64,000 nucleotides of DNA from a virus. Lineage: Duplodnaviria > Heunggongvirae > Uroviricota > Caudoviricetes. The notes under the pieces were generated by a model that was given only the letters and a program-made list of their open reading frames with translations, had not been told where the DNA came from and did not search any database. Of the stretch, positions 19,150-55,700 are shown one piece after another. The translations under genes and the position numbers were made by a program. Positions within the stretch are counted from its first letter, which is position 1. The number at the start of each line of letters is the position of its first letter. The stretch is from the IMG/VR virus record IMGVR_UViG_3300046656_000613, positions 30,167-94,166 of that record; one strand, 5' to 3'.

Positions 19150-19241
19150 TGGCGGATAGGGCAGGATTCGAACCTGCGGGCCACGCTTTCGCGGACCAAC
19201 GATTTAGCAAACCGCCGCAATCGGCCTCTCTGCCACCTATC
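19150..19241 (-). tRNA. tRNA-Ser (GCT), type II
   Basis: Acceptor GGATAGG/CCTATCC, anticodon loop TTGCTAA, long variable arm, T-loop TTCGAAT, CCA encoded. Confidence 0.7.
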
Positions 19242-19311
19242 CAGGCTTCCCGATGGAATCCTGTCCTTAGACTCGCATCCCAACCTTATCGCACATATTC
19301 CACCCTGGCAA

Positions 19312-19406
19312 TGGCGGAGGAGGTAGGATTTGAACCCACGGGGCGCACTCTCGTGTCCCGACGGTTTTCAAGACCGCTGCCTTAAGCCAGACTCAGCCAC
19401 TCCTCC
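19312..19406 (-). tRNA. tRNA-Ser (TGA), type II
   Basis: Acceptor GGAGGAG with complementary CTCCTCC; a one-base anchor conflict forces a G-U at the 7:66 pair, possibly hiding an off-by-one in the gene or in the ORF track; anticodon loop CTTGAAA; long variable arm. Confidence 0.7.
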
Positions 19407-19630
19407 AACTCAAACAGGGCGCTGGCGACGGGGCGTTACCCCGTTGGCTCGATTGACTTGTGCACGTCGTGCAAGCGCGCCAGCATTAACTCGATACGGG
19501 TCTAGAGGACATGGGGATTGTACCTCCAGTTGCGATTCTTCGCGTTTGCGCCTCTTCGCCGGTTCCCTAAACCGAACCCGCTCTGGCCGATCACTTCCAT
19601 CGACCGGGGCCGGTCTTTCAGGCCCGTGTT

Positions 19631-19706
19631 TGGTAGCGGGAGTCGGATTTGAACCGACGACCTCCAGTTTATGAGACTGGCGAGCACTCCGCTGCTCTAT
19701 CCCGCA
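19631..19706 (-). tRNA. tRNA-Met (CAT), U1:U72 mismatch (initiator-like or elongator unresolved)
   Basis: Anticodon loop CTCATAA; perfect anticodon stem CCAGT/ACTGG; T-loop TTCAAAT. Confidence 0.7.
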
Positions 19707-19712
19707 ATAATT

Positions 19713-19789
19713 TGGTGCCACCGGCACGGTTTTGAACCTGCGACCTGCCGCTTACAAGGCGGCTGCTCTACCATCTGAGCTACGGCGGC
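19713..19789 (-). tRNA. tRNA-Thr (TGT)
   Basis: Acceptor GCCGCCG; anticodon stem GCCGC/GCGGC with loop CTTGTAA; T-stem has a 1-nt bulge. Confidence 0.7.
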
Positions 19790-19795
19790 GAAACT

Positions 19796-19869
19796 GGTTC
19801 TCCCTCAAGGATTCGAACCTCAACCTTTGCGTCCAGAGCGCAACGTCACTACCGTTAGACGAAGGGAGA
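19796..19869 (-). tRNA. tRNA-Gln (CTG)
   Basis: Anticodon loop CTCTGGA; D-arm similar to enterobacterial tRNA-Gln; T-loop TTCGAAT. Confidence 0.65.
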
Positions 19870-19872
19870 CCT

Positions 19873-19947
19873 TGGTCCTGAAGGCCAGAATTGAACTGGC
19901 GTTTCGCGGTCCACAGCCGCGCGTCCTAGCCACTGAACGACATCAGG
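19873..19947 (-). tRNA. tRNA-His (GTG) with no encoded G-1 and A73 discriminator
   Basis: Anticodon stem CGCGG/CCGCG with loop CTGTGGA; base before position 1 is C, not G. Confidence 0.65.
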
Positions 19948-19949
19948 GT

Positions 19950-20024
19950 TGGTCTGCGCGGCCTGGGTCGAACAGGCGGTCTCCTGATCCCAAATCAGGC
20001 GGATTACCTCTTTCCTACGCGCAG
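19950..20024 (-). tRNA. tRNA-Pro (TGG)
   Basis: C1:G72 acceptor CTGCGCG/CGCGCAG; anticodon stem CCTGA/TCAGG with loop TTTGGGA. Confidence 0.75.
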
Positions 20025-27579: not shown

Positions 27580-27894
27580 GTCGTCGCGCCCCCCGCTTCG
27601 ACATGCGAAAGGCGGCCCCGGAAAACGCTTAGCGTCCCAGGTGGTTGTCAGTAAACCGGATGGAAGCCACAGGCGTGGCAGCAGGAGCTTCTTCCCGGAT
27701 CGCCCCCTTCCGATATTGCGACGGCCCCTTCGGGGGTCGTTTGCATTTCGGGGAGGTTTCCCCTTGTCTCACAGACTCGGGATGGGAGCAAGCCGGGAAT
27801 CTCTTGAAATTGGCCGCGGATCGGCATACATTCTCCAGCACGATATGCGGTTGAACTTGCCGTCATCGCTTAAAATGAGGTGGCGGTTTTTCTT

Positions 27895-27952: not shown

Positions 27953-28684
27953 ATGAAACTGAATCAGATTATCGCGATCGAGAAGGGCGTGAAGGCGCGC
28001 GCCCAGGAAACCCTCGATGTTCTCTACAAAGTCGTGCAGAAGCCGGCCCTGTTCGAGGGCATGACGCGCGTCTACCGCCCCAAAAACGATGAGGGCGATA
28101 AGCTGCCGGGCGAGCGGAAGGTGGTGCAGTATCGCGTTGACGATGCGCTCAGCACGATCCGGCTGGCGGAGACCGAGGCGATCAATGTGACGGCCCAGAA
28201 AGAGCAGGCCAACACTGTGGCAGCCGCGCCGGTACTTGTCGATGGGAAACTGGTCATCGGCAAGGTTCCCGCGACGACGCTGCTGTTCCTGGAGCGCCGG
28301 CTGACGAATCTGCGCACGTTTCTGGAAGCGCTGCCCGAGCTGGACATCGGCGAGGAATGGGAGCCCGACTATGATTCCGGGCTGAGCCGCACGGCGCCGG
28401 TGGAGACCCAGCGCACCGTGAAGCTCCAGCGCCCGCTCGTGCTGTTCCCGGCGACCGACAAGCATCCGGCGCAGACCCAGGTTGTTACCGAGGACGTCCT
28501 GGCCGGCTTCTGGAACACCACGCGGCAGTCCGGCGCCATCGCCAAGACCCGCAAGCTGGAGCTGATCGATCGGGTGGACAAGCTGCTGATCGGCGTCAAG
28601 GAGGCCCGCGAGGAGGCCAACAGCGTGGATGCTGGCGAGCGCGCCAATATCGGCGGCGCCATTTTTGAGTTTCTCCTGAAATAG
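27953..28684 (+). CDS. hypothetical protein (243 aa)
   Basis: ORF track; immediately followed by the tRNA-like cluster. Confidence 0.45.
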   Translation: MKLNQIIAIEKGVKARAQETLDVLYKVVQKPALFEGMTRVYRPKNDEGDKLPGERKVVQYRVDDALSTIRLAETEAINVTAQKEQANTVAAAPVLVDGKLVIGKVPATTLLFLERRLTNLRTFLEALPELDIGEEWEPDYDSGLSRTAPVETQRTVKLQRPLVLFPATDKHPAQTQVVTEDVLAGFWNTTRQSGAIAKTRKLELIDRVDKLLIGVKEAREEANSVDAGERANIGGAIFEFLLK

Positions 28685-28689
28685 GAGTC

Positions 28690-29080
28690 CGAAAGTCTTA
28701 GACTGGTCTTTAGGCTAAAGCAGTGACGTGCTGGTTCGAGTCCAGCCCCCGGCACCAACCTATGCCGGGGTGGCGAAATGGTAGACGCAGCGGTTCCCAG
28801 GATCGTGTCACTTCAGATTTAGACTATTCCAACCAGACTGAGCAGATGCCGTGCCGGACCTATCGACCGGCTCCACAATGAAACGATAGACAGGAGTTCG
28901 AATCTCCTCCGGCTCGCCAAATCCTTATGAGCCGGTAGTCTAGTTGGTATGACGATCGTTATAAGCTTAAGTGGAGTCTAAACTGCCGAGGTCTGGAGTG
29001 AGCGGTTTAGGTAGCTCAATGGGTAGAGCAACACCCTTGTAAGGTGTCGGTAGCAGGTTCAAATCCTGCCCTATATCAAA
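28690..29080 (+). other. cluster of chimeric or permuted tRNA-like segments (three units) ending in a tRNA-Thr(TGT)-like gene with no CCA (29007..29078)
   Basis: Perfect T-arms GCTGGTTCGAGTCCAGC and AGGAGTTCGAATCTCCT; D-arms TGGCGAAATGGTAGACGC and TAGTCTAGTTGGTATGAC; each 3' acceptor strand pairs with the 5' acceptor of the next unit rather than its own. Confidence 0.5.
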
Positions 29081-29136: not shown

Positions 29137-29334
29137 ATGAAGCAGGAAGACTTTCGACGAGCCGGCGAGACCCTATACGGCGAAAAATGGCGAGAACCCC
29201 TCTCCAAGGCCCTCGACATCAGCCCCTCGACAGCATGGCGCTATTGGCGCGGCAAGCTACCCATTCCCACCAAAGTTGAACTGGCCGTCCAGAAGCTTCT
29301 CGACAATGCAGAACGCGAAAAAGCCCGGCACTGA
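29137..29334 (+). CDS. small putative DNA-binding protein (65 aa)
   Basis: Internal ATG of ORF 29044..29334; basic, Trp-containing helix-rich sequence. Confidence 0.3.
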   Translation: MKQEDFRRAGETLYGEKWREPLSKALDISPSTAWRYWRGKLPIPTKVELAVQKLLDNAEREKARH

Positions 29335-29351
29335 CGCCGGGCTTTCGTGTT

Positions 29352-33670: not shown

Positions 33671-33891
33671 TTAACCTCCACAGGCGGATGATAGCCAAAG
33701 TCCCATTCCTGGATGAGAAAGTCCAGCGCGCGCCATTCTTCCTCGGTCGGCTCATGTCCGGTCGGATGGTTATAATACCATGTCTCCGACAGGTGCCAGC
33801 CCTTCTCTTTGAGGAAGGCCATCGCCTTGTCTTCGCCGATGCCATCCTGCCCGCCCCACTCGGCGCGCAGTTCATCGCTGGCGCTGGGCAT
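33667..33891 (-). CDS. hypothetical protein (74 aa)
   Basis: ORF track. Confidence 0.35.
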   Translation of the reverse strand: MPSASDELRAEWGGQDGIGEDKAMAFLKEKGWHLSETWYYNHPTGHEPTEEEWRALDFLIQEWDFGYHPPVEVK

Positions 33892-34421
33892 CAGTCGGGC
33901 CGATCCGCTTCCATAACGGTGACGTCGCCGATAGTGACATCGGGGGCGTTACCGGCCGCCTCGTATTCCGCGGCTTCCTGGGCGGTCATCTCCTGATTGA
34001 ACGTGTCCTCGGGAAGATTGATGCGCTCGGGCTTGAAGATGGCGCGATTGATCGCCATGAACGCCTGTTCGATGTGGGTGCGGCCAATGGCCAGCCAGCG
34101 CTGATCAACAAGCTCATCGCCCTTGAAATCATCAAGGCGCCGGAGGACTCGCTCCTCAAGCTGCTTGTTGATGTTGACGACGGCGATTCGACTGTCGGGC
34201 TGCGCCGTGTAGCCGGCGACGGGAAGGGGGCTGTGGGTGGCCGGAGGATCGAGCGCATCGGCCGCCGCGCCGATCTGCTTTGCCAGGGTCAGCGAGATGA
34301 GTTCGCTGCCCAGGCTAGGGAACACCAGCTCGACCACAGGCCCCTGTGCGTTTTCGTATTCCTCCGAGCCTCTGTTGTGAGTGACGATCGTGAAATCGTC
34401 GGCCGTGTAAACTCTCTTCAT
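33891..34421 (-). CDS. hypothetical protein (176 aa)
   Basis: ORF track. Confidence 0.45.
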   Translation of the reverse strand: MKRVYTADDFTIVTHNRGSEEYENAQGPVVELVFPSLGSELISLTLAKQIGAAADALDPPATHSPLPVAGYTAQPDSRIAVVNINKQLEERVLRRLDDFKGDELVDQRWLAIGRTHIEQAFMAINRAIFKPERINLPEDTFNQEMTAQEAAEYEAAGNAPDVTIGDVTVMEADRPD

Positions 34422-45954: not shown

Positions 45955-46029
45955 GCTGGGGTAGCTCAGTGGTAGAGCGTCGCGTTGAAGGCGCGAGCGT
46001 CGGTGGTTCAACCCCATCCCCCAGCACCA
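45955..46029 (+). tRNA. tRNA-Phe (GAA)
   Basis: Perfect acceptor GCTGGGG/CCCCAGC; anticodon stem TCGCG/CGCGA with loop TTGAAGG; CCA encoded. Confidence 0.85.
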
Positions 46030-46031
46030 AT

Positions 46032-46106
46032 TGGCATGAAGCACAGCGGTTGTGCATCTGGCTGTTAACCAGGGGGCCGCAGGTTCGAATCCTGCCTTGC
46101 CAGCCA
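46032..46106 (+). tRNA. tRNA-Asn (GTT)
   Basis: Anticodon stem TCTGG/CCAGG with loop CTGTTAA; T-loop TTCGAAT; one U:U in the acceptor. Confidence 0.7.
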
Positions 46107-46111
46107 TATTC

Positions 46112-46185
46112 GGGGATATAGCTCAGTGGCAGAGCATTGCTCTTGCAAAGCAACGACCGGGGTTCGATTCCCCGTTTCTCCACCA
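46112..46185 (+). tRNA. tRNA-Ala (TGC)
   Basis: G3:U70 wobble present; anticodon loop CTTGCAA. Confidence 0.75.
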
Positions 46186-46190
46186 AATTC

Positions 46191-46264
46191 GGGAGTGTAG
46201 CTTAGTGGTAAAGCGGCGGTCTCCAAAACCGCTGGCCGCGGTTCGATTCCGCGCTCTCCCGCCA
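46191..46264 (+). tRNA. tRNA-Trp (CCA)
   Basis: Anticodon stem GCGGT/ACCGC with loop CTCCAAA. Confidence 0.7.
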
Positions 46265-46265
46265 T

Positions 46266-46340
46266 GGTCCCTTCGTCTAAAGGTCAGGATTGCGCACTTT
46301 CACTGCGCCGGTGTCGGGTTCGAGTCCCACAGGGATCACC
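46266..46340 (+). tRNA. tRNA-Glu (TTC)-like, weak T-stem
   Basis: Resembles enterobacterial tRNA-Glu (GTCCCTTCGTCTA...); anticodon loop CTTTCAC; T-stem only 3 bp. Confidence 0.5.
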
Positions 46341-46448
46341 AAAGTTAGCTGTGTCGTGGTCCGCGAAAGCCTGGACGGGCACTGGCGGAGAACGGCAAGC
46401 GGTTAGCAGCCACGAGGCTGCGCAAGCAAGCTGTTCCCGCCCCGGATT

Positions 46449-46522
46449 GCGAATGTAGCTTAATGGTAGAGCAGGGCGTTGCCAACGCTCAGACGCGAGT
46501 TCGATTCTCGCCCTTCGCTCCA
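46449..46522 (+). tRNA. tRNA-Gly (GCC)
   Basis: Anticodon loop TTGCCAA; T-arm GCGAGTTCGATTCTCGC. Confidence 0.7.
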
Positions 46523-46528
46523 GTTTCC

Positions 46529-46603
46529 GCGAACATAGCTCAGCGGCAGAGCGCCACGCTTCCAACGTGGGCGTCGGGAGTTCGATCCTCCCTGTTCGCT
46601 CCA
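46529..46603 (+). tRNA. tRNA-Gly (TCC)
   Basis: Perfect acceptor GCGAACA/TGTTCGC; anticodon stem CACGC/GCGTG with loop TTCCAAC. Confidence 0.8.
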
Positions 46604-46610
46604 AACTTAT

Positions 46611-46713
46611 GCGGGAATAGTGTAAAGCGCACGCCGGTTAACCGGAAGTACGGTATAGATGGTCAATCCGCGGTAGCGGCCATCGTCGGGGCGGTTCCCC
46701 GTTTCCCGCTCCA
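46611..46713 (+). tRNA. atypical 103-nt tRNA-like element (perfect acceptor GCGGGAA/TTCCCGC plus CCA)
   Basis: Acceptor pairing and CCA present but the body is too long and the T-arm non-canonical; possible intron-containing gene or pseudo-tRNA. Confidence 0.35.
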
Positions 46714-46718
46714 GTCAT

Positions 46719-46796
46719 GCCCCCGTAGCTCAGTGGAACAAGAGCGCTGGCCTACGAAGCCGGATGTCGCAGGTTCGAATCCTGCCGGGGGCTCCA
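46719..46796 (+). tRNA. tRNA-Arg (ACG)
   Basis: Perfect acceptor GCCCCCG/CGGGGGC; anticodon loop CTACGAA. Confidence 0.8.
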
Positions 46797-46854
46797 ATAT
46801 CGCACCAGGATCTACTTGTCGTCAACAAGTATTGGTGCTATATATTACTACAGT

Positions 46855-46931
46855 GCCCCTCTGGGCAAATGGTAAAGTCGCTGGACCCAGACTCCAGAGT
46901 TATCCCGGTTCGAGTCCGGGGAGGGGCACCA
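46855..46931 (+). tRNA. tRNA with anticodon CAG (Leu-type) but a short variable arm
   Basis: Perfect acceptor GCCCCTC/GAGGGGC; anticodon stem CTGGA/TCCAG with loop CCCAGAC (C33 unusual); class-I length. Confidence 0.45.
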
Positions 46932-46936
46932 CTCTC

Positions 46937-47013
46937 GCGCGGGTGGGCAAACGGTAAAGTCGCTGCCTTGAGGTGGCAGAGCACTGCGGGTTCGAATCCC
47001 GCTCCGCGCACCA
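46937..47013 (+). tRNA. tRNA with anticodon GAG (Leu-type) but a short variable arm
   Basis: Anticodon stem CTGCC/GGCAG with loop TTGAGGT (U33, G37); T-arm GCGGGTTCGAATCCCGC; 77 nt. Confidence 0.5.
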
Positions 47014-47017
47014 ATAC

Positions 47018-47094
47018 GGACCCGTCGCCAAGTGGTTTACGGCACCTGACTCTTAATCAGGCATGCGCTGGTTCGAATCCAGCCGGGTCTACCA
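47018..47094 (+). tRNA. tRNA-Lys (CTT)
   Basis: Anticodon stem CCTGA/TCAGG with loop CTCTTAA. Confidence 0.8.
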
Positions 47095-47101
47095 TTCTTA
47101 C

Positions 47102-47190
47102 GGGCTCTTTTCCCTTCGGCGGGCTGTAAACCCGTTGGCTATGAAATAGAGGGGTCGGTGCCGAGCAGTTCAAATCTGCGGGAGCCCACC
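47102..47190 (+). tRNA. tRNA-Tyr (GTA)-like, type II length, aberrant D-arm
   Basis: Anticodon loop CTGTAAA identical to bacterial tRNA-Tyr; acceptor GGGCTCT/GGAGCCC pairs; 89 nt; D-arm cannot be folded confidently. Confidence 0.4.
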
Positions 47191-47219
47191 ATTCACGGAA
47201 ACCAAAGGCGAGAACTAAC

Positions 47220-48161
47220 ATGAGACAAATCTCTGACGGCGGCCCGAGCGGACAAGGCAGCAGCCTGATGCTCGGCGGCTGGCTGACCATCGGCGCGGTG
47301 GTGGTCAGCATCCTGATCGCATTCTGGAGCTATTACACCGTGGACGCCGGCCATGTGGCGGTGATCAAGCGCTTCGGCGCGGTGCAAGAGGGCTATTACG
47401 GCCCCGGCCTGCATTTCAAGAACCCGCTGCTCGACAGCGTGGTCCACGTCAACACTCAGCTCAGCAGCGTCGAGGCCAAGGCCGGCGCCGCCTCCAAGGA
47501 CATGCAGGTTGTCACCACCGAGGTGAGCGTGCCTTATTACCTGCAAGACCCGCAGGTGCCGACGATGATCAATGCGCTCGGCTCGCGCGAGGTGCTGGCC
47601 AAGAGCGTCCTGGCGACCGCCATTCAGGAGTCCGTCAAGAGCGCCACGGCCGGCTATACGGCCGAGGAGCTGCTCACCCGGCGCAATGAGGTGAAAGCCA
47701 AGATCGTCTCCGGCATCGTCGCCTACGTCAACGACACCCTGCGCGCCAAGAAAATCGAAGGGCTGGTCGGCATCGCCAATGTCGGCATCACCGACTTCGA
47801 CTTCTCCCCCGACTTCAACAAGGCCATCGAACAGAAGGTCCGCATGCAGCAGGACGCTCTGCGCGCCGAGATCGAGAAGACCAAGCGCATCACCGAGGCC
47901 GAGGCGAAATTTGCCGAAGCGAAGCTGAGTGCCGACGGCGAAGCCTACAAGACCAAGACCGAGGCGGAAGCCCGGATCTTCGCGATCGAGGGCGAGGGCA
48001 AGGCGATCCGCGAGAACCCCGGCATCGTGCCGCTGCGTATCGCCGAACGCTGGGATGGCACTCTGCCGAAATATAACAGCTCGACACTGCCCATGTTCAT
48101 GATGCAGGCTGAGCCCGAGACCGCCACACCGACGTCGCCGACGCGCGCGGCCACCCGGTAG
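47220..48161 (+). CDS. SPFH/band-7 (prohibitin/HflK-like) membrane protein
   Basis: N-terminal TM then GHVAVIKRFGAV...GLHFKNPLLDSVVHVNTQ... SPFH core and a coiled-coil C-terminus; embedded in the tRNA array. Confidence 0.8.
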   Translation: MRQISDGGPSGQGSSLMLGGWLTIGAVVVSILIAFWSYYTVDAGHVAVIKRFGAVQEGYYGPGLHFKNPLLDSVVHVNTQLSSVEAKAGAASKDMQVVTTEVSVPYYLQDPQVPTMINALGSREVLAKSVLATAIQESVKSATAGYTAEELLTRRNEVKAKIVSGIVAYVNDTLRAKKIEGLVGIANVGITDFDFSPDFNKAIEQKVRMQQDALRAEIEKTKRITEAEAKFAEAKLSADGEAYKTKTEAEARIFAIEGEGKAIRENPGIVPLRIAERWDGTLPKYNSSTLPMFMMQAEPETATPTSPTRAATR

Positions 48162-48168
48162 CAAGACT

Positions 48169-48243
48169 GGTTCTGTAGCTCAGCGGTAGAGCGTGCGCCA
48201 TATAAGCGCTTGGTCCCAGGTTCGATCCCTGGCAGAACTACCA
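48169..48243 (+). tRNA. tRNA with anticodon loop CATATAA (Ile- or Met-like, unresolved)
   Basis: Acceptor GGTTCTG/CAGAACT; T-arm CCAGGTTCGATCCCTGG; coordinates adjusted +1 to match the ORF track. Confidence 0.5.
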
Positions 48244-48246
48244 GAC

Positions 48247-48322
48247 GGTCCCGTAGCTCAATGGACAGAGCGCCGGCTTCCGAAGCCGAAGGTTGCAGGT
48301 TCGAGTCCTGCCGGGATCGCCA
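48247..48322 (+). tRNA. tRNA-Arg (CCG)
   Basis: Anticodon loop TTCCGAA; T-arm GCAGGTTCGAGTCCTGC. Confidence 0.7.
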
Positions 48323-48339
48323 TCAATCAGGAGAGACGC

Positions 48340-48549
48340 ATGACCACGCAGCGCGTGCGGGGCAAGACGGAACGCAGTTGGACATGGCGCGTCTTCAAGC
48401 GCTATGCGCTTCTGGACAATTCCAGGATCTTCTTTGCGATTGTTGCCCGGTTTCCGCCCCGGCGCGATCTGTGGTGCTGGCTCCATCGTTGGCCGGAGGG
48501 CATCGACATCAGGGTGTGGCCGGTCGATTTATTTATTAAGCGCGCCTAG
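48340..48549 (+). CDS. small hypothetical protein (69 aa) inside the tRNA array
   Basis: ATG after SD CAGGAGAG; Trp/Arg-rich. Confidence 0.3.
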   Translation: MTTQRVRGKTERSWTWRVFKRYALLDNSRIFFAIVARFPPRRDLWCWLHRWPEGIDIRVWPVDLFIKRA

Positions 48550-48615
48550 CCCAACGGGAGAGGCAACACCGTTAAGCCGTGTAAAGTGTCAGTTCGAATC
48601 TGACGGCGCGTACCA
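48540..48615 (+). tRNA. tRNA with anticodon TAA (Leu-type) but class-I length
   Basis: Acceptor GCGCGCC/GGCGCGT; anticodon loop GTTAAGC; T-arm GTCAGTTCGAATCTGAC; 76 nt. Confidence 0.45.
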
Positions 48616-48619
48616 AATA

Positions 48620-48696
48620 AGGTGTGGGAGCCAGACGGCAGCGGCGCTTGGTTGCAACCCAAGAGATAGCCGGTTCAATTCCGGCCCACACTTCCA
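48620..48696 (+). tRNA. tRNA-Cys (GCA)
   Basis: Perfect anticodon stem CTTGG/CCAAG with loop TTGCAAC. Confidence 0.75.
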
Positions 48697-48788
48697 AAAT
48701 CGCAGTTAGAGGGTCGCGCCCTGTCGGGTTTCTGGGCGGTTCTGGCAAGCAATCCTCTATGCAAAGCTGGCTCGGGGCGCTGCGATAC

Positions 48789-48825
48789 GCTCTTGACACG
48801 TTTCGCTATGCAATATATGGTTCTG
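48789..48825 (+). promoter_or_regulatory. sigma70-like promoter (CTTGACA, 16-17 nt, TATATG) inside the tRNA array
   Basis: Good -35/-10 with canonical spacing, upstream of tRNA-Asp. Confidence 0.4.
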
Positions 48826-48948
48826 TTGTCCCCGGCTCGCATGGGCGCGGTGCACCGGATTTGCGTAGCCCTAGCCTTGTGCCTACAATATGGCCGTAAA
48901 CATGATAAGCCGGCTGAGGAAGCATAGTAAACCGGGGGCACCCCTTAT

Positions 48949-49023
48949 GGTCTGTTAGCTCAGTGGTAGAGCGCCGGCTTGTCACGTCGTAGGTCGCGGG
49001 TTCAATTCCCGCACAGATCGCCA
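48949..49023 (+). tRNA. tRNA-Asp (GTC)
   Basis: Anticodon loop TTGTCAC; T-arm GCGGGTTCAATTCCCGC. Confidence 0.8.
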
Positions 49024-49025
49024 AT

Positions 49026-49102
49026 GGTCCCGTAGCTCAGTTGGTAGAGCGCCCGTTTTACATGCGGAAGGTCGCAGGTTCAAATCCGTGCCGGGACTAC
49101 CA
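49026..49102 (+). tRNA. tRNA-Val (TAC), bulged T-stem
   Basis: Anticodon loop TTTACAT; acceptor GGTCCCG/CGGGACT. Confidence 0.6.
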
Positions 49103-49107
49103 TTTTC

Positions 49108-49182
49108 GCCCTTGTAGCTCATCGGCAGAGCACGTCATTGGTGATGACGGGGCAGCAGGTTCAATTCCTGCCTGGGGCACCA
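49108..49182 (+). tRNA. tRNA-Thr (GGT)
   Basis: Perfect anticodon stem CGTCA/TGACG with loop TTGGTGA. Confidence 0.7.
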
Positions 49183-49198
49183 TTATAGGAGTGGAGTT

Positions 49199-49471
49199 AT
49201 GGCAGCGGCAGCGGTCACATGTAGAGCATTTCTTGAAGCCAGACCGGGCATCAGCGTCATTGATCTCGCAACCGAGGCTGTTGCCGATCACATCGAGAAG
49301 AACGGCTGCGCCTTTGAGGACAACGCCCCGGCTCGCGCCGTTGAGCTGCTCGGAATCGACCCACACAGCGTGGCGACGGCGCTTCCGCCCGAGATTTTGA
49401 AGCGCCTTGAAGATGCGCTGGAAGACATGGAGACATATTGTCCCCACCGGACGCTTGGCCAAGTGGCTTAA
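49199..49471 (+). CDS. small hypothetical protein (90 aa) whose 3' end overlaps tRNA-Lys
   Basis: SD AGGAGTGGAG before the ATG; overlaps the next tRNA by about 23 nt. Confidence 0.3.
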   Translation: MAAAAVTCRAFLEARPGISVIDLATEAVADHIEKNGCAFEDNAPARAVELLGIDPHSVATALPPEILKRLEDALEDMETYCPHRTLGQVA

Positions 49472-49525
49472 GGCACCCGACTTTTAATCGGAAGATCCTG
49501 GGTTCGAATCCCAGAGCGTCCACCA
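49449..49525 (+). tRNA. tRNA-Lys (TTT)
   Basis: Perfect acceptor GGACGCT/AGCGTCC; anticodon loop CTTTTAA. Confidence 0.75.
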
Positions 49526-49526
49526 T

Positions 49527-49600
49527 GGTCTCGTAGCTCAACGGTAGAGCATCCGACCGATAATCGGCCGACCGTGGTTCAACTCCACGCGAGACTACCA
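49527..49600 (+). tRNA. tRNA-Ile (GAT)
   Basis: Anticodon loop CCGATAA; T-arm CGTGGTTCAACTCCACG. Confidence 0.65.
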
Positions 49601-49602
49601 TC

Positions 49603-49679
49603 GGCCCCGTAGTTCAATGGAATAGAACGCCCGTCTTCTAAGCGGGATGTTGCGGGTTCGACTCCTGCCGGGGCCACCA
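49603..49679 (+). tRNA. tRNA-Arg (TCT)
   Basis: Perfect acceptor GGCCCCG/CGGGGCC; anticodon loop CTTCTAA. Confidence 0.8.
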
Positions 49680-49768: not shown

Positions 49769-52700
49769 CTATTCCCCGATCACCGGACCATACAGATCGC
49801 TGACGTCGGCATCCTTGCGCTGGCTATTGATGCGCTCGCGCACCTTGCCCCAGACCTTGGCGAGGTGCTTGCCGTCCTGGACCTTCTCCTTCTTCATCCG
49901 GCGCAGCATCTCATCATAGACTTCCGGGGCGCCGGCTTTGAGCACCTTCAGCCGGGCGTCCACATCCATCAGCTTCTGCTGGCCCCAGCCGTCGATCCCC
50001 ATGATCTGGAGGGCGTTCTGGGCCATGCCCTTGCGAATGTGCGCAATCTCATTGCGGGCAAAGCGCATCTGCTCGCGGTCCATCTTCTTGCGCGCCTCGC
50101 CCTTCTCGTCCTTGTCCTGGATCAGCTCGCCGGTGACGATCTCCTTCATGATCGCGTTGGTGATCTTGACGGATTCGCTGGCGTTGATCATCGGATGCAG
50201 ATTGCGATATTTGCCCTTGGTGCGGCCCTTGAAGTCATTCTCCAGCACCGCGAAGGCGCGCTGATCCGGGTTAATCTGGCCGAGGAATTCCGAGGCCCGA
50301 ATGCTGTTCTCACCGCCCGAGTCGATCATCTTTTTGTAGGTGTTCGAGGCCGAGTGGAATGAGCGCGCGTCCTCGCTGACCGTATCCCAGAACCACTTGT
50401 TCAGCCCCTCGCCGTCGGTCATCATATTGTAGAACTTCGACAGCGAGTTCGAGGTTTTGCCTGCATTGTAAGTGAACCGGCGCGCCACCGGGTATTCTGC
50501 GATCGACGGCATCGGCCCCTCGCCAAGCGCCGCATCCAGGCCAGACGCTGCGTCCTGGCCCACCGAGGTGGTCAGATTGCGGATCAGGAAGTCCGCATAA
50601 TACGGCGACATGTTGAGCGCTTCGCCGATCTGCTTGGCCGCCCATGAGGTGTACGGGCCGAACTGCTGCTGACGCTCAACCTCCTCGGGGCCTTTCTCCC
50701 AGATCGGCACGATGTCGTTGCCGGAATACATATCCTTTCCTGACGCGAAACCATAAACCAGATCCAGCGCCGAGATCGAATGCGGCGGCAGCAGCGTGGT
50801 GAAGAAGTCGCTGACCATGCCGGCCGCCGCGCGCGGATCGTGATCGACCAGATAGTCCCAGCTCCGCTCGACCGCATTGGCGAACCATGCGATTTCGAAG
50901 GGCTTGGGAATGCGCATCATCCAATCGGTCTTCTCATCCTCGCCGGCCAGGAAGACGCGCATGTCTTTGGGCAGCAGGTACAGCACGCCATTGAGCGACA
51001 GCCGCCAATGGGTGGCGCGCACGCTGTCCGGCACCTCCTTCATGTCGTCATCGTCGGCACCCAGCATGCAGAACAGCAGCGACAGGCCGCCGAGCACGAC
51101 GGTGGAGATCATCCACGCCTTGCCGGCCTGCCCGAGCGCGCGCTGCTCATTGACCGACAGCGGCAGGCCACGGCTGTGCCGATCCCAGATCTGGATCAGG
51201 TTGCCGTAGTCATTGGCGCCGGTCATGGTCTTGGCATATTTGTAGACACCCTGGAGCGCGGCATTGAAGAACGGGATGACGCGCCGGAAGGCTTCGGTTT
51301 TTGAGCCGTGCTGGCTGAAGTCCATCACGTCATGAGCGTAGTGCCCGGCCTCGATCGCCGCCTCGAACTCGGTCATGCCGTCGGCCTGGGCAGATAGCAT
51401 GGCGTTGCGGAAGATGCCAACGCGGGTGGCGGTCTCAGAGAATTCGCCAACCTGGAACACCAGCTTGACCAGATCCTTGATGCTACGCGGCACCCGCACA
51501 TTGAAGCCGCGCAAGCGCAGCCCCTCGATGTCGCGCTGGATCGACTGATCCGTGAGCGAGGCGTGGCCGGCGCCACCCATCATGCCGGCGTAGCGGTTAT
51601 ACAGATGCAGATAGGGTCCGCCGCGGACGATCTCGCGCATGCCGCGCGCCTGGGTGAGAAATGGCCGAGCATAGGGCGAGTTCACCCAGGACGCGATCGA
51701 GTCGGTGATGATGTTGCGGATCATGAAGCCGAACGAGAAGGTCACGCCGGTGCGCACCACGCTGGTGGTGATGGCCATGGCGTCCATAAGCTGACCCATA
51801 TTGCGCTGGCCGACGGCAGTCAGACCCTCGAACATCATCTGCCCGAGCGTGCCATCGGGGAGCTGCGCCGGGATCGGCTTGCCGTTCTCGAAGAACCAGA
51901 CGATCTTCTCGCCCTTCTCATTGGCCTGCGCCTGGGTGAACATGGTCGTGACCACGTTCTGGCCGATCTGGGTCTCGACATTGGCGAGCATGATCGCAGT
52001 GTCCTGCGCCGTCATGCCGGCCGCGCGCGCCGCCTGCCGGAGCTGCTCGCGAATCCGCACTTCGACCGCCCGTGCCTCGGTGGGCGGCAGCCGCTCGAAG
52101 ATCTCGTTGCCCGCCTGCCCGGCCTGCCGGGCGATGCGATCCATAGCGCGCAGCGTGTCATTGATCGCGGCGCGCAGCCGGATCTCGAACATGGTCTGCA
52201 CTGTGGACTGGATCGGGTTGATGATATCGCGCATCGAGCCTTCGAGCTGGCGATAGACATCATACTTATTGATCTTGTCGCGCCCACGTCCCGGCCGCTT
52301 CGAGGTGGCATCCGTGCCATCCACCGTCTCGCGATCGGACATGTTGCGCTGGAACGGACAGTAATCCCGGTCCTGCTGGTACTCATTGCGCTCATCGAGG
52401 GTGATCAGACCCTTCTCGTACATCAGCTCGATGATGTCTTTGTTGAAGCGATAATACAGCTCGGCCGCCTGCCGGAACTGCGGGTTCTGTTGCTCATGGC
52501 GCAGCAGCCGATTGAGGTGCTCATACAGCGCCTCGGCGGTCGGTGGATTGGCCAGATCCGAGACGGTGTTGGTCGGCAGCCGCTGGAGCAGGAATGCCAT
52601 CTGCGGGTTGGCGGCCACGAACTGCTGGATCTGCACACGGAACTGCGGCCGATAGCGGACATAGAGCAGGATCGCGCGCCGGCTGATCAGATAGTCGCCG

Positions 52701-55700
52701 AACGCGCGCGCCCGCGCCTCATTCCAACTGCGCCGATTGGTGTTGCCGAAGGCTGTCGCCAGCACCTGATGCATCGATACGCCGCCGACGCCATTGGGCC
52801 GCGAGCGCAGCGCAACCCCCTCCTTGAGATCCTGCATCGCCCATGCCTGGGTGTGCGAGGTCATCTTCAGCAGCTTGTTGGGATTGTCGGCCGCCGCCAG
52901 GGTGACGCGCTGGCCGGTGACGCGATTGATTTCTTCGAGCAGCGCCCGCGTCGCCATCCACCAGCCATGGCGCTTGTCGAAGACGTTCATGACGAAGCCA
53001 TGATGCAGATCATACAGCCGATCGGCCATGGTCGAGACGAAGCCGTCGCGCTCGGCGTCTTGCAGGAAGCGCCGGGCGGCATTCGGGGTGCGGGTGAGCA
53101 TGGTCTGCTGCGCGGCGCCGCGATCGAGCGGGTCGCCAAGCAGGAAATTGTCGTACTCATCCTGGATGTCCTGCATCGCCCAGAACAGCCGCGGGTCTTC
53201 CGCCTCGACCAGATTCTCAAAGGTGCGATAGAAATTCGGCGCCTGCTGGCGCGCCGCGGTCTCGTTGGTCAGATAGCGGCGGAAGAATTCGGCAAAGCCC
53301 TCCGACAGATTGGTGTTGCCCTGGCCGGCGACCACGCCGGCCAGCGGCGACAGCTCGTGCGAGAACGCCACCATGGCCGCGCGCAGTCGGGCGCCCAGCG
53401 TGCGCTCCAGATGATGGCCCGCCTCATGGGCGAAGGTGTCGAAGTCGATCTGCACGCGCAGGCGAGCGCGACCATTATACTGGCCGTTGACTTGCCCGCC
53501 GCCCGCCGCGGTCGCCTGCCGCTGGAGCGCCGGGTCGATGCGCCCGGTCGCCACCGACAACCCGGCCGCGCGGCGGAAGTCCGCCATCAGCTCAGAGAGC
53601 GCCTTGAGAGGCCGCTGGCGGGGCAGGAAGCGCTGCACGACGTTCTGGGCCATGCTGCGCGGCGCTGCCGTCTGCCGTGCCCTGGTGGCGCCTGGGGCCG
53701 TGGCGATGCCGCGCGCGTCGGCGAGCACGCCCGCGCGGATCATCGCCTGGGTGTTCACCTTCTCAGTGCGGCCATAGATCTCCTCATAACGACGCTTCAG
53801 CTCGCCCTGATCGACCTTCTGGAAAATATCCTCCCATGTCTGGGAGCCATTGCCCTTGATGCCGTTGACCAAGCGGGCCATGAAGTCGCTCAGTCGCTTG
53901 AAGGCAATCCGCACGATCCCCTTGGGGGCATACTGGTCGGCACGATAGCGGCCGAACATCTCCATGATCGATTCCTTGAGGATCAGATCCTGGAGTTGTC
54001 GCGGCCCCATGGTTTTGCCATAGCGCTTGGTGTAGGCGCGGGCGACGCCGGTCTTGCGAACCCAGCCCTCTTTCTGCGCGGCGGCCTGGAGTGCCGACCA
54101 TTCGGCTGCGGTGATCATGTCGTGCGCCAGGAAGAACTCCAGCGCCTCATGCCGCACCGTGGTCTTGGTGATCTCGGCCATGGACTGGCCGGTGGCGCGG
54201 GCCTTCTCCTCGATGGCCTTGGCGCCGATCGAGATCATCTCCGCGCGTGGGTCGGTCTGGCCGAGTGCGCGAACAATGGCGTTGTCGATATTTTCATTGC
54301 TGTCGTCGAGGGAGAACAGCTCGTCGAGCACTTCCTGCTGCTCGCCGGCCTCCATCGGCTCACCGTTTTTATGGGTGATCCTGACGGAGCTGTCGTCGAA
54401 CACCACAATGTTGCGCGTGCCGTCGGCCTGCTTCACATCGGCGGCCTGGACTTCCAGGATCTGGTCGAGCGTAGCCTGGGCGTCGCGGAGCCGTTCGGCG
54501 GTCAGCCGCTGATGGTTCGGCGGGACGAATGGCGAGAAGTCTTCCGACTCCTTGTCGCCGCGGCGCATCTCGAAATTGAGCTTTTCGACATGCTCGCGGT
54601 ATTTCTGCTCGGTCTCGTCGAGCGAGCCGTCAAGCTTCTGCTGCGCCCAGCCCCAGAGCTGGTCGGGGACAGGCTTGCCGTTCAGGCTGATGGTGCGCGA
54701 CGACGCATCGAGATAACGCAGGCCGGGGACGCCGGCCGCGTGAAGCGCTGCCGAAGCCTCTTGATCTGTGTAGAAACGGCGCCTCAGCTCATCGATAACA
54801 TGGCGTCCGTCGCGATAATCGACGGCATCAAACCCAAGCGCTTTCAGTTTTTCTTGGACGCCCGCAGGCTGCTTGCTCAGCGGCTTATCCCAATCCAGGA
54901 GCTGCTCAGGCTCAAGATCGATCTCGACCTGATAGAGCATGCCCTTGTCGATCTCGGGCTGTGGGAAGCGAATCTGCTTGCCGTACAGCCCCTTGAGCCA
55001 CTCGATGGCTTCCTTTGCCGCCTTGCGCTCATCCAGGCTCAGAGTTTCGCCGAAGGAATCCATCCCGGCGTCCAAATCAACCTGGATAATTGCGGTATAT
55101 TCCTGGATCATCCCCAACGGGATGACGCCGCCCGCCTTGGGAAGATCATCCTTAAGCTGACTGCCCAGCCAATGGATCATATCATTGCCGGTGATGTCCG
55201 TTTCCTGATCATCGATAAACATGATGTCAGGCACAACGGTCTGCTGCCGAGCGGCGCCTGATAGCGCCTCGCGATAATAGTCGGCGATGCCCTTATTCTC
55301 AGCAAAATACAGGCCATACCCATAAGCCTGCGCGCCCTCGCCGGTGCCGATCGCATCCATGCTGAAGCGGTCAAAGCGGTGCGGCGTGCCGTGGAACGCC
55401 GTCAGCGAGAACATATTCGGGGTCTCGGCGCGGGCCTCAACGGGCATCTTCGACCACAGCTTGATCAGCTCACCGCGTTCCTTGCGCGCGTTGGTCAGAT
55501 CGAATGCCTTGTTCTCATCGTCCGGTCGCGCCGCGATTGCTCGCAGCTCTTTGCCAATAAAATCAAGGTTGTCCTTGATCCGTCGCGGCGAAATATAATA
55601 CCCCTCAAACTCGGACCACTGATGCCATTTCACGCTCTCGGGTGAGCGCTTTTTCCACATGGCATAGCCTTCTTCCGACAGAATGCCGGAAGGCGACATC

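What the first reader, a model, noticed from the sequence alone, without database searches (positions are those of the whole stretch)
28690..29080. Cluster of chimeric or circularly permuted tRNA-like units
Three consecutive units contain textbook tRNA arms (T-arms GCTGGTTCGAGTCCAGC and AGGAGTTCGAATCTCCT, D-arms with AATGGTAGA and TAGTTGGTAT loops, 7-nt acceptor strands ending in CCA). However, each 3' acceptor strand (CCCCGGC, CCGGCTC) is perfectly complementary to the 5' acceptor strand of the next unit (GCCGGGG, GAGCCGG), 6-9 nt downstream, not to its own 5' end. The bodies between anticodon arm and T-arm carry about 75-nt inserts that share TTTAGACT-like motifs. The cluster ends with a CCA-less tRNA-Thr(TGT)-like gene. 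This could be permuted or split tRNA genes, decayed tandem tRNA duplicates, or an integration (att) scar. Permuted tRNA genes are not described for bacteria or phages.
Basis: seen in the sequence. Interest (0 to 1): 0.7.

Follow-up and report, generated by a model that had tools for sequence, protein, structure and literature searches.

The report
Phage tRNA-mimic RNA pair with DUF7873
The "permuted tRNAs" are two tandem structured non-coding RNAs, each with a tRNA-shaped head on a long conserved stem, that always follow one uncharacterised phage gene (DUF7873); this widespread gene-plus-RNA cassette is undescribed in every library and paper collection searched here.

Summary
Window 28689-29009 holds two different tandem structured RNAs (unit 1 at 28689-28844, unit 2 at 28840-29009). 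Each has a T-arm, a 7-bp acceptor helix closed by a short loop that starts with an encoded NCCA, a D-arm, and a long closing stem where a tRNA has its anticodon arm. An ordinary tRNA-Thr follows. Both RNAs lie directly downstream of a 243-aa DUF7873 gene, and this cassette recurs in phages of many bacterial phyla. Covariation is very strong: unit 2 pairs in 93% of cells against about 40% in slid controls, and 42 of 43 pairs show compensatory changes. The tRNA Levitt pair 15:48 also covaries. The nearest known relatives are bacterial Y RNA-like YrlA RNAs and permuted tmRNA genes, but the defining features of both were tested and failed. The elements are not decayed tRNAs, an att scar or true permuted tRNA genes. 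Inferred mechanism: co-transcription with DUF7873, RNase P cleavage in the acceptor loop, then action as tRNA mimics, probably with DUF7873. The function itself is unknown.

The parts
27953..28684 (+). DUF7873 protein gene (243 aa), the constant upstream partner of the RNAs
   Evidence: Pfam PF25283, 283 bits against a cut-off of 27. It is 43% identical to Arthrobacter phage Racecar gp145. The family has 2,595 clusters at 50% identity.
28689..28844 (+). Unit 1 RNA: a tRNA-shaped head on a long closing stem
   Evidence: Model R2, 126.8 bits, full length. Pair counts on 64 sequences are.
28697..28727 (+). Unit 1 closing stem, 5' strand (CTTAG-A-CTGG, TAG, CTAAA, GTGAC)
   Evidence: Constrained fold, comparative alignment and pair counts (outer helix 77%, inner helix 81% paired against about 40% for slid controls).
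28730..28746 (+). Unit 1 T-arm (GCTGG TTCGAGT CCAGC)
   Evidence: 99.7% paired, 4 of 5 pairs covary. The T-loop is TTCRANT.
28747..28770 (+). Unit 1 acceptor helix: CCCCGGC, discriminator A + CCA (28754-57), loop ACCTAT, GCCGGGG
   Evidence: 99.3% paired, 7 of 7 pairs covary. Discriminator A in 53/64 and NCCA in 36/64.
28773..28788 (+). Unit 1 D-arm (3-bp stem, tRNA-Leu-like GCGAAATGGTAGACGC)
   Evidence: 99.5% paired with covariation. U8, A14, G18, G19 and A21 are conserved, and A15:U48 / G15:C48 covary.
28790..28806 (+).
   Evidence: Variable in length and sequence, with UUCG or GNRA-type loops in some loci, and absent in others.
28807..28842 (+).
28840..29009 (+). Unit 2 RNA: a second, different tRNA-shaped head on four nested closing helices
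   Evidence: Model R1, 123.4 bits, full length.
28848..28887 (+). Unit 2 closing helices, 5' strands: H1 28848-52 (tentative in this copy), H2 CCGGACC 28854-60, conserved TATCGA 28861-66, H3 28869-76, H4 AACGAT 28882-87
   Evidence: On alignment A5, H1 is 85.5%, H2 92.5%, H3 93.8% and H4 85.6% paired, and every pair covaries. The unfitted MAFFT seed gives the same picture.
28892..28908 (+). Unit 2 T-arm (AGGAG TTCGAAT CTCCT)
   Evidence: 98.8% paired.
28909..28935 (+). Unit 2 acceptor helix: CCGGCTC, discriminator G + CCA (28916-19), loop AATCCTTAT, GAGCCGG
   Evidence: 99.8% paired, 7 of 7 pairs covary. NCCA in 42/67, U at -1 in 51/67 and G at +1 in 61/67.
28938..28953 (+). Unit 2 D-arm (class I type)
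   Evidence: 95.9% paired. U8 67/67, A14 67/67, G18 64 and G19 65 of 67. Levitt pair G15:C48 in 38 and A15:U48 in 26 of 67.
28955..29006 (+). Unit 2 closing helices, 3' strands: H4 ATCGTT 28955-60, H3 28971-78, conserved block TCTAAACTGCCGAG 28977-90 (its first two bases are also H3, its last base is also H2), H2 GGTCTGG 28990-96, H1 GCGGT 29002-06 (tentative)
   Evidence: TTAAA[ACT]G occurs in 35 of 38 unit 2 sequences, but not in the window's copy, which reads TCTAAACTG.
29004..29078 (+). Ordinary tRNA-Thr(TGT) abutting unit 2, without encoded CCA
   Evidence: ARAGORN and Rfam tRNA at 64.7 bits. In other loci a tRNA abuts unit 2 within 0-5 nt.
29320..29345 (+). Terminator-like hairpin that probably ends the plus-strand transcription unit
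   Evidence: This is a consensus match only.
27804..27832 (+). Weak sigma-70-like promoter match upstream of DUF7873
   Evidence: 9 of 12 matches; not above the shuffle expectation.

Best explanation
Window 27953-29078 is a conserved phage cassette. It consists of a DUF7873 protein gene followed on the same strand by two different structured non-coding RNAs, and here also by a normal tRNA-Thr. Each RNA is a tRNA mimic. It has a T-arm, a 7-bp acceptor helix and a D-arm that keep the nucleotides needed for the L-shaped tRNA elbow. The acceptor helix is closed by a loop instead of being formed by the RNA's two ends. The anticodon arm is replaced by a long, sequence-conserved closing stem formed by the unit's own 5' and 3' flanks. 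This much is shown. The following steps are inferred. (1) The RNAs are co-transcribed with DUF7873: only 12 nt separate the stop codon from the unit 1 stem, and no promoter-like or terminator-like site is predicted between them. (2) Where the acceptor loop is short, RNase P cuts 5' of the G+1 of the 7+5-bp acceptor/T minihelix (U at -1, encoded NCCA) and the short trailer is trimmed. This leaves nicked two-piece tRNA mimics with a CCA end, held together by the closing stems. Where the loop is a long hairpin without CCA, the RNA stays closed. (3) The tRNA-shaped heads engage host factors that recognise tRNA shape, and the conserved closing stems serve as a platform for a protein partner, most plausibly DUF7873. 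That would be an arrangement analogous to Ro60/Rsr with Y RNA. The biological purpose (hijacking or decoying host tRNA-processing enzymes or tRNA-targeting defence enzymes, or stabilising the transcript) is not established.
For: Architecture: folds and Rfam's best sub-threshold hit, YrlA, aligned over the whole model. Conservation and linkage: the two tandem units lie about 35-180 nt after the DUF7873 stop codon in most of 80 viral loci. Full-length unit 2 is found downstream of the gene in about 80 of 90 loci and unit 1 abuts it in about 58 of 75. The cassette is also present in cultured phages of Arthrobacter, Gordonia, Ralstonia, Klebsiella, Vibrio, Rhizobium and Pseudanabaena and in 20 of 27 genomic copies. 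A protein-independent sequence scan recovered unit 2 only in DUF7873 contigs. No other protein neighbour is conserved. Structure: on the unfitted MAFFT seed, unit 2 pairs in 88.5% of cells against about 41% for slid controls, with 41 of 43 pairs changed on both sides and 0 of 500 shuffles as high. On 67 sequences it pairs in 93.1% with 42 of 43 pairs compensatory. Unit 1 pairs in about 83% against 35-45% for slid controls, and its core pairs in over 99%. tRNA 3D mimicry: U8, A14, G18, G19 and A21 are near-invariant, and the Levitt pair covaries (unit 2 G:C 38 and A:U 26 of 67; unit 1 A:U 58 and G:C 4 of 64). Processing signals: NCCA in 42/67 and 36/64 (chance is 1/64), in 85% of short unit 2 loops; U at -1 in 76% and G at +1 in 91% for unit 2. 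Tendencies of this kind are, from general knowledge of bacterial RNase P substrates, what that enzyme prefers. A direct precedent is M. smegmatis YrlA, which has a 7-bp acceptor stem and is cut by RNase P and receives CCA in vivo (PMC4201824). Transcription unit.
Against: No expression, end-mapping or binding data exist. RNase P cleavage, CCA trimming and DUF7873-RNA binding are all inferred. DUF7873 is near-neutral (median pI 6.5) and has no recognisable RNA-binding fold or any informative structural neighbour, so genomic linkage is the only evidence that it is a partner. About 40% of copies lack an encoded CCA, and many have long hairpin loops, so a free CCA end cannot be essential to the shared function. 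Two DUF7873 loci (L037, L038) show no detectable RNA. The middle part of the unit 1 closing stem pairs in only about 58% of cells in one fixed register. Some loci have hairpins between the gene and unit 1 that could be terminators.
Confidence: 0.75

Rival explanations
1. They are divergent true YrlA/Y RNAs that work with a Ro60/Rsr protein encoded by the host or elsewhere in the phage.
For: YrlA is Rfam's best match for both units, over the full model (30 and 15 bits; 32.9 and 18.6 bits in Racecar). The T-arm, closed acceptor stem and D-arm layout is the same, and tRNA tertiary nucleotides are conserved as described for YrlA (PMC4201824). YrlA RNAs are known in phages.
Against: The scores are far below the gathering score of 69, and no unit in 17 diverse loci reaches it. 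The Rsr-binding motif GNCGAAN0-1G occurs at or below chance (2/38 and 0/38). No TROVE domain is found in any window ORF of 280 aa or more, nor in the annotated neighbourhoods of four contigs. The constant neighbour is DUF7873. The closing stems carry conserved sequence blocks that differ from those of YrlA.
Confidence: 0.08
2. The tRNA-like structures are cis-acting processing or stability elements for the DUF7873 transcript. RNase P 'punctuation' would leave the mRNA with a protected tRNA-like 3' end, in the manner of MALAT1/mascRNA or of plant-virus 3' tRNA-like structures, rather than producing trans-acting RNAs.
For: They sit immediately 3' of the gene with no predicted promoter between. 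RNase P-type signals are present. tRNAs abut the 3' end of unit 2. After cleavage the mRNA would end in the 5' half of unit 1 plus CCA (an inference from the anatomy).
Against: A single hairpin or one tRNA would suffice for that role. Instead two different 155-170-nt RNAs are maintained, with conserved unpaired sequence blocks and four nested helices. Many copies lack CCA and have closed hairpin loops. Some loci have strong hairpins between the gene and unit 1.
Confidence: 0.12
3. They are genuinely permuted or split tRNA genes whose halves are joined (by circularisation or trans-splicing) into functional tRNAs.
For: The order is permuted, with a 7-bp acceptor stem, discriminator and CCA. The unit 1 D-arm and its A73 resemble tRNA-Leu (my reading against the E. 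coli tRNA-Leu sequence recalled from memory).
Against: There is no anticodon stem-loop. The position is occupied by a closing stem of about 22 or more base pairs with conserved internal loops. The small hairpin in unit 1 is variable or absent. ARAGORN calls nothing here. Bacteria lack the splicing endonuclease pathway used for permuted tRNAs (established knowledge).
Confidence: 0.02
4. They are decayed tandem tRNA duplicates or an integration (att) scar.
For: The window is tRNA-rich (29 tRNA genes), and adjacent tRNA pairs give weak partial hits to the model.
Against: Adjacent tRNAs do not have mutually complementary acceptor strands. The elements are conserved, with compensatory changes, in more than 60 distinct sequences from phages of different phyla, always after the same gene.
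Confidence: 0.01
5. They are a two-piece (permuted) tmRNA.
For: Rfam gives a partial cyano_tmRNA hit at 21.6 bits, and the T-arm / 3' acceptor-CCA / loop / 5' acceptor order is the same. Related phages do carry tmRNAs.
Against: G3:U70 is present in only 1/67 and 1/64 sequences. ARAGORN makes no tmRNA call. The score is far below the gathering score of 70. No tag reading frame or pseudoknot domain is evident.
Confidence: 0.01

Closest known systems
YrlA (Y RNA-like A; Rfam RF02553), the bacterial and mycobacteriophage partner RNA of Rsr/Ro60
   Same: The overall design is the same: the 5' and 3' ends pair into a long stem that carries a tRNA-like module in the order T-arm, loop-closed acceptor-like stem, D-arm. 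tRNA tertiary nucleotides are conserved and the Levitt pair covaries. Both families contain a processed form (7-bp stem, RNase P cleavage and a CCA end, as in M. smegmatis) and a closed form (as in Salmonella) (PMC4201824). Tandem pairs of Y RNAs also occur (YrlA/YrlB).
   Different: There is no Rsr/TROVE gene nearby, no GNCGAAN0-1G motif, and the scores are far below the Rfam threshold. The conserved neighbour is the unrelated DUF7873 protein. The closing stems have their own conserved blocks (unit 2 consensus: TATCGA, TTAAACGCCGAG, GAAGTCGCGG; unit 1: CTNAG-type blocks). CCA is genomically encoded in about 60% of copies. Two distinct tRNA-like units are fixed in a set order.
Permuted (two-piece) tmRNA genes (Rfam RF04321, RF01849-51)
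   Same: The gene order is T-arm, 3' acceptor strand with CCA, intervening loop, then 5' acceptor strand. The loop is excised to give a two-piece RNA held together by a long helix that replaces the anticodon arm.
   Different: There is no G3:U70 alanine identity pair, no tag-encoding reading frame or pseudoknots, and no call by ARAGORN or at Rfam thresholds.
Permuted tRNA genes of Cyanidioschyzon merolae and other algae, and of some archaea
   Same: The 3' half is encoded upstream of the 5' half, and the acceptor strands are joined by a short linker containing or followed by CCA.
   Different: Those mature into complete tRNAs with an anticodon arm through a BHB motif, a splicing endonuclease and a circular intermediate. 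Here there is no anticodon arm and no such pathway in bacteria.
MALAT1 mascRNA and plant-virus 3' tRNA-like structures
   Same: [quoted passage not shown]
   Different: They have a non-permuted topology, belong to eukaryotic or RNA-virus contexts, and have no dedicated protein gene partner.

Membership tests
YrlA / bacterial Y RNA (RF02553) | tRNA-like module ordered T-arm, closed acceptor-like stem-loop, D-arm, enclosed by a stem formed from the 5' and 3' ends | tested here: met
   Folds, the Rfam alignment and covariation.
YrlA / bacterial Y RNA (RF02553) | Conserved tRNA tertiary nucleotides and a covarying 15:48 Levitt pair | tested here: met
YrlA / bacterial Y RNA (RF02553) | Score at or above Rfam's gathering score (69 bits) | tested here: not met
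   30.0 and 15.0 bits in the window, 32.9 and 18.6 bits in Racecar, and no YrlA call in 17 loci at gathering thresholds.
YrlA / bacterial Y RNA (RF02553) | 5'-strand Ro/Rsr-binding motif GNCGAAN0-1G | tested here: not met
   2/38 unit 1 and 0/38 unit 2 sequences, against a shuffle expectation of 2.5-2.8.
YrlA / bacterial Y RNA (RF02553) | Encoded within about 4 kb of an Rsr/Ro60 (TROVE) gene and on the same strand | tested here: not met
   No TROVE domain in any window ORF of 280 aa or more. None in the Pfam-annotated neighbourhoods of four contigs. The flanking gene is DUF7873.
YrlA / bacterial Y RNA (RF02553) | Physical binding to Rsr/Ro60 | not testable with these tools
   Needs immunoprecipitation or EMSA.
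Permuted tmRNA (RF04321 and relatives) | Gene order T-arm, 3' acceptor-CCA, loop, 5' acceptor | tested here: met
   and the partial cyano_tmRNA alignment.
Permuted tmRNA (RF04321 and relatives) | G3:U70 alanine identity pair | tested here: not met
   The U:G type at the 3:70 pair occurs in 1/67 and 1/64. The window has C3:G70 and G3:C70.
Permuted tmRNA (RF04321 and relatives) | Tag reading frame and pseudoknots; detection by ARAGORN or at Rfam thresholds | tested here: not met
   ARAGORN reports no tmRNA. The cyano_tmRNA score is 21.6 against a gathering score of 70.
Permuted/split tRNA genes | The two halves reconstitute a full cloverleaf including an anticodon arm | tested here: not met
   The position is occupied by a long conserved closing stem. 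The only nearby hairpin is variable or absent.
Permuted/split tRNA genes | BHB motif, splicing endonuclease and circular intermediate | not testable with these tools
   Needs RNA sequencing that captures circular reads. The pathway is not known in bacteria (established knowledge).
tRNA (RF00005) | Cloverleaf closed by its own 5' and 3' ends; called by ARAGORN or Rfam | tested here: not met
   Only tRNA-Thr 29004-29078 is called in the region. Calls spanning two units elsewhere are artefacts (L047; FBKp24 'tRNA-Sup-TTA').
DUF7873 (PF25283), for the protein | Pfam profile match above the gathering score | tested here: met
   283.1 bits against 27, covering 2-242 of 243 residues.

The most novel reading that the evidence does not exclude
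DUF7873 and the two tRNA-mimic RNAs form a previously unrecognised, widespread phage ribonucleoprotein. It would be a functional analogue of Ro60-Y RNA built with an unrelated protein of unassigned fold. Its tRNA-shaped, often CCA-ended heads would capture or decoy host enzymes that recognise tRNA shape, such as RNase P, the CCA-adding enzyme, synthetases, or tRNA-targeting anti-phage toxins. That would make it a new class of phage counter-host RNA.
Probability: 0.4. Interest if true: 0.85.

Novelty: new variant of a known kind. Interest (0 to 1): 0.7.

Why it matters
tRNA mimicry by Y-type RNAs was known only in partnership with Ro60/Rsr. Here the same RNA design is maintained in tandem and under strong structural selection, next to a different and completely uncharacterised protein family. 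That family has about 2,600 clusters at 50% identity and occurs in phages of Actinobacteria, Cyanobacteria and Proteobacteria, and in MAGs of other phyla. The finding gives DUF7873 its first functional lead and adds two well-defined RNA families that are absent from Rfam. It explains gaps of about 350-535 nt that are unannotated, or mis-annotated as a suppressor tRNA or a small ORF, in cultured phages such as phiRSL1, FBKp24, Phendrix and Racecar. It also offers experimentally tractable systems for asking why phages need tRNA-shaped RNAs that cannot decode, a question that bears on the growing number of host defences that act on tRNAs.

Tried and rejected
- **Metazoan Ro-binding resemblance.** GGAGUCCGAA at 28685-94 resembles the metazoan Y RNA Ro-binding strand GGUCCGA. 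It lies outside the conserved unit and is not conserved in other loci, so I treat it as coincidence.
- **Unconstrained MFE folds of the window.** They gave only weak z-scores (-1.2, -1.3) and a partly different closing stem. I replaced them with comparative and constrained folds.
- **Local hairpin reading of the palindromic CTNAG blocks.** The alternative of pairing with the distal CTGAG block fits loci where no hairpin can form (for example L008) and recurs in independent folds. Alternatives remain possible in the actinophage clade.
- **DUF7873 function.**
  - PHROGs, NCBIfam and PADLOC gave nothing.
  - afdb50 was unavailable.
  - The exhaustive profile search found only single-domain relatives with no fusions.
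- **DUF2828/DUF7788 protein near one locus, as a possible TROVE-like partner.** It has no PDB sequence relative and the adjacency is not conserved, so I dropped it.
- **Near-identity DNA search for the source phage.** No match.
- **Supplement of the YrlA paper for phage Ro60 coordinates.** Not held, so complete genomes of cassette-bearing phages were not screened for Rsr.
- **Blind all-against-all column covariation scan.** It recovered the fixed-register helices but not those in variable-length regions.
- **A K-turn-like reading of the unit 2 internal loop (TATCGA / CCGAG).** I considered it by eye, but it has a non-canonical bulge length and G-to-A variation, so I do not claim it.
- **Aminoacylation (LeuRS-like features of unit 1).** I considered it as a shared function and rejected it because about 40% of copies lack CCA or have closed hairpin loops.
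Full report
**Observation**

- There are two canonical T-arms.
- Each is followed by a 7-nt strand, a discriminator and CCA (CCCCGGC-A-CCA; CCGGCTC-G-CCA).
- After a further 6 or 9 nt comes the perfectly complementary 7-mer (GCCGGGG; GAGCCGG), and then a D-arm.

ARAGORN calls only the terminal tRNA-Thr(TGT) at 29004-29078 among the window's 29 tRNA genes. The window looks like part of a large, high-GC, tRNA-rich phage genome. It has no close relative among deposited phages.

**First lead**

A permissive Rfam scan gave YrlA (Y RNA-like) as the best non-tRNA match for both units. The scores were 30.0 and 15.0 bits against a gathering score of 69, but the alignments covered the whole model. It also gave a partial match to a permuted cyanobacterial tmRNA.

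Both families encode a T-arm and 3' acceptor strand upstream of the 5' acceptor strand. Chen et al. 2014 (PMC4201824) describe YrlA as follows.
- It is a stem made from the RNA's ends that carries a T-arm, a closed acceptor-like stem-loop and a D-arm.
- It has a 5' Rsr-binding motif, GNCGAAN0-1G.
- It is encoded within about 4 kb of Rsr.
- The M. smegmatis RNA has a 7-bp acceptor stem, is cut by RNase P and receives CCA in vivo.

Folding each window unit gives the same layout, with the 5' and 3' flanks pairing around a tRNA-like head.

**Context**

No TROVE/Rsr domain exists in any window ORF of 280 aa or more. The ORF that ends 12 nt before unit 1 (27953-28684) is a DUF7873 protein (PF25283, 283 bits).

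The only DNA-level match of the units in cultured phages was to three Arthrobacter phages. In phage Racecar the match lies in an unannotated 409-nt gap right after gp145. That protein is 43% identical to the window protein (E=6e-67), and the gap holds two sub-threshold YrlA-like units.

This prompted a family-wide survey.
- DUF7873 has 584 or more word-index hits and 2,595 clusters at 50% identity in an exhaustive profile search. Nearly all are stand-alone ~245-aa proteins.
- Among 2.9 million viral contigs, 219 stretches encode it.
- It is in 75 cultured phage records infecting Vibrio, Gordonia, Rhizobium, Klebsiella/Serratia, Arthrobacter, Pseudanabaena, Ralstonia, Rhodococcus and Microcoleus. 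It is always annotated 'hypothetical protein'.
- It is in only 27 of 185,579 species genomes.

In most of the viral loci the stop codon is followed within about 35-180 nt by two tandem units of the same design, with acceptor stems of different sequence in each locus.

In all six cultured phages whose region I fetched after the protein search, plus Racecar, there is a gap of about 350-535 nt after the gene. The gap is unannotated in five of these seven. In FBKp24 it holds a 'tRNA-Sup-TTA' call, and in Vibrio D517 a small ORF and a tRNA. Unit-like elements are present in all of them.

Neighbouring protein genes are not conserved, and none is TROVE.

A protein-independent scan for a 14-nt unit 2 block recovered genuine unit 2 copies only in contigs already known to carry DUF7873. 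Two DUF7873 loci lack detectable RNAs.

**Structure of unit 2**

I tested a hand-derived structure on a MAFFT alignment of 24 sequences made without structural input (A3). The structure has four nested closing helices (H1-H4), a T-arm, an acceptor helix and a D-arm.
- It pairs in 88.5% of cells, against about 36-43% when the partners are slid.
- 41 of 43 pairs are changed on both sides, and 0 of 500 shuffles reach this.

The acceptor helix was part of my detection criterion for these sequences, but H1-H4 and the D-arm were not.

A covariance model (R1) finds full-length unit 2 downstream of the gene in about 80 of 90 loci at 50-160 bits. The window scores 123.4 bits. On 67 distinct model-aligned sequences:
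- 93.1% of cells pair, against 37-42% for slid controls;
- 42 of 43 pairs show compensatory change;
- the acceptor helix pairs in 99.8% of cells.

The weak partial hits are unit 1 heads and adjacent ordinary tRNA pairs. That is the false-positive type Chen et al. warned of.

**Structure of unit 1**

- Independent constrained folds of each sequence converge on a long interrupted closing stem. It runs from just after the stop codon to the CTGAG block that precedes unit 2.
- On an unfitted alignment (A6) the T-arm pairs in 100% of cells, the acceptor in 97.6% and the D-arm in 98.6%, all with covariation. The closing stem pairs in 67-82%, against about 40% for slid controls.
- Model R2 finds unit 1 in about 58 of 75 sources, always abutting unit 2.
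- On 64 sequences the head pairs in over 99% of cells. The outer and inner stem helices pair in 77-81% and the middle in about 58%.
- The small hairpin after the unit 1 D-arm is variable, sometimes capped by UUCG or GNRA-type loops, and absent in a whole clade. It is not an anticodon arm.

**tRNA-like three-dimensional fold**

| Feature | Unit 1 (n=64) | Unit 2 (n=67) |
|---|---|---|
| U8 | 64 | 67 |
| A14 | 63 | 67 |
| G18 / G19 | 62 / 62 | 64 / 65 |
| A21 | 61 | 64 |
| Levitt pair A15:U48 | 58 | 26 |
| Levitt pair G15:C48 | 4 | 38 |
| Levitt pair mismatched | 1 | 3 |

T-loops are TTCRANT in both units. This is the same argument Chen et al. used for YrlA.

**Processing signals**

| Signal | Unit 1 (n=64) | Unit 2 (n=67) |
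|---|---|---|
| Discriminator | A in 53 | U in 46, G in 17 |
| NCCA tail | 36 | 42 |
| NCCA among loops of 16 nt or less | 29 of 43 | 34 of 40 |
| U at -1 | 34 | 51 |
| G at +1 | 47 | 61 |

- Loops longer than 16 nt mostly lack CCA. Several fold into a hairpin, in some cases (for example phiRSL1) one that continues the acceptor helix.
- The family therefore has a probably processed form and a closed form, as YrlA does.
- Where a tRNA follows, it abuts unit 2 within 0-5 nt, so RNase P would also define that end.
- In the window no promoter-like or terminator-like site is predicted between the gene and the RNAs. A terminator-like hairpin lies at 29320-45.
- The cassette is a plus-strand island among minus-strand genes.

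**Membership**
- YrlA: the architecture and the tertiary mimicry are met. The Rfam threshold, the Rsr-binding motif (2/38 and 0/38, which is chance level) and Rsr adjacency all fail.
- Permuted tmRNA: the gene order is met. G3:U70 (1/67 and 1/64), the tag and pseudoknot domain, and the detection thresholds all fail.
- Permuted tRNA genes: there is no anticodon arm.

The element therefore works like a YrlA-type tRNA mimic but is not a member of that family.

**The protein**

**Literature**

No paper in the searchable library mentions DUF7873 or this cassette. A 2023 survey lists 10,006 unnamed phage candidate RNAs (PMC10690425). I cannot exclude that fragments of this element are among them.

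**Verdict**

The element is a conserved phage cassette made of DUF7873 plus two tandem tRNA-mimic RNAs of YrlA-like topology. Rfam does not annotate it, and nothing in the searchable literature describes it. Its structure and linkage are shown. RNase P/CCA processing, partnership with DUF7873 and the biological role are inferred.

Noticed in passing
window 19150-20024 (-) and 45955-49679 (+): There are 28 further tRNA genes in clusters, covering most amino acids. With the giant ORF this points to a large phage genome. No close relative exists in the phage collection.
   Followed up: partly
window 49769-59668 (-): A 3,299-aa ORF carries an LPD38 (large polyvalent protein) domain and a ROS/MucR DNA-binding domain. 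It is followed by an 886-aa ORF (59671-62331) with a weak VgrG3-like C-terminal match.
   Followed up: no
window 33891-34421 (-): The gene product matches the Acb2/Tad1 hairpin family of anti-CBASS/anti-Thoeris nucleotide sponges, according to the precomputed Pfam annotation of the same contig (L082 14148-14678). A Pam3_gp59 family gene is adjacent.
   Followed up: no
window 47220-48161 (+): An SPFH/Band_7 gene sits between two tRNA clusters. A Band_7 gene also lies near the cassette in the T4-like contig L084.
   Followed up: no
L011 6537-6834: A permuted tmRNA (RF04321, 59.8 bits against a gathering score of 47) lies on a phage contig about 1.5 kb downstream of its DUF7873 cassette. Gordonia phage Phendrix (L089 563-1091) carries a standard tmRNA in the same tRNA cluster.
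   Followed up: partly
L087 3512-3591 (Klebsiella phage vB_KpM_FBKp24, NC_061421 46041-46120): The deposited annotation 'tRNA-Sup-TTA' overlaps the 5' flank, T-arm and 3' acceptor-CCA of unit 2. It is probably a mis-call of the tRNA-mimic RNA rather than a suppressor tRNA.
   Followed up: partly
L084 16224-16369, and L084 10814-11013: A lone unit 1-like RNA (R2, 51 bits) lies about 5.5 kb from the cassette with no DUF7873 next to it. In addition, unit 1 of that cassette seems to carry an extra inserted tRNA-like T-arm and acceptor element.
   Followed up: no
L037, L038: DUF7873 genes with no detectable unit 1 or unit 2 within 4 kb on either side. They are either true exceptions or highly diverged RNAs.
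   Followed up: partly
L118 (Promethearchaeota MAG contig WJMJ01000145.1), 6886-7050: A DUF7873 homolog (35% identity) with a unit 2-like RNA (68 bits) lies on a contig binned to an Asgard archaeon. It could be an archaeal virus or a binning artefact.
   Followed up: no
L085 (ENA contig, 137 kb): The cassette sits among sugar-epimerase and polysaccharide-export genes and IS110 transposase genes, with no obvious phage genes within 10 kb. The cassette may move independently of phages.
   Followed up: no
L012 and L021 acceptor loops: In some loci the acceptor 'loop' is a 74-88-nt structured insertion without CCA. Its nature is unknown.
   Followed up: no
window 29137-29334 (+): A small ORF (65 aa as called on the contig) lies after tRNA-Thr, inside the same plus-strand island. 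It matches PHROG 3626, of unknown function.
   Followed up: no
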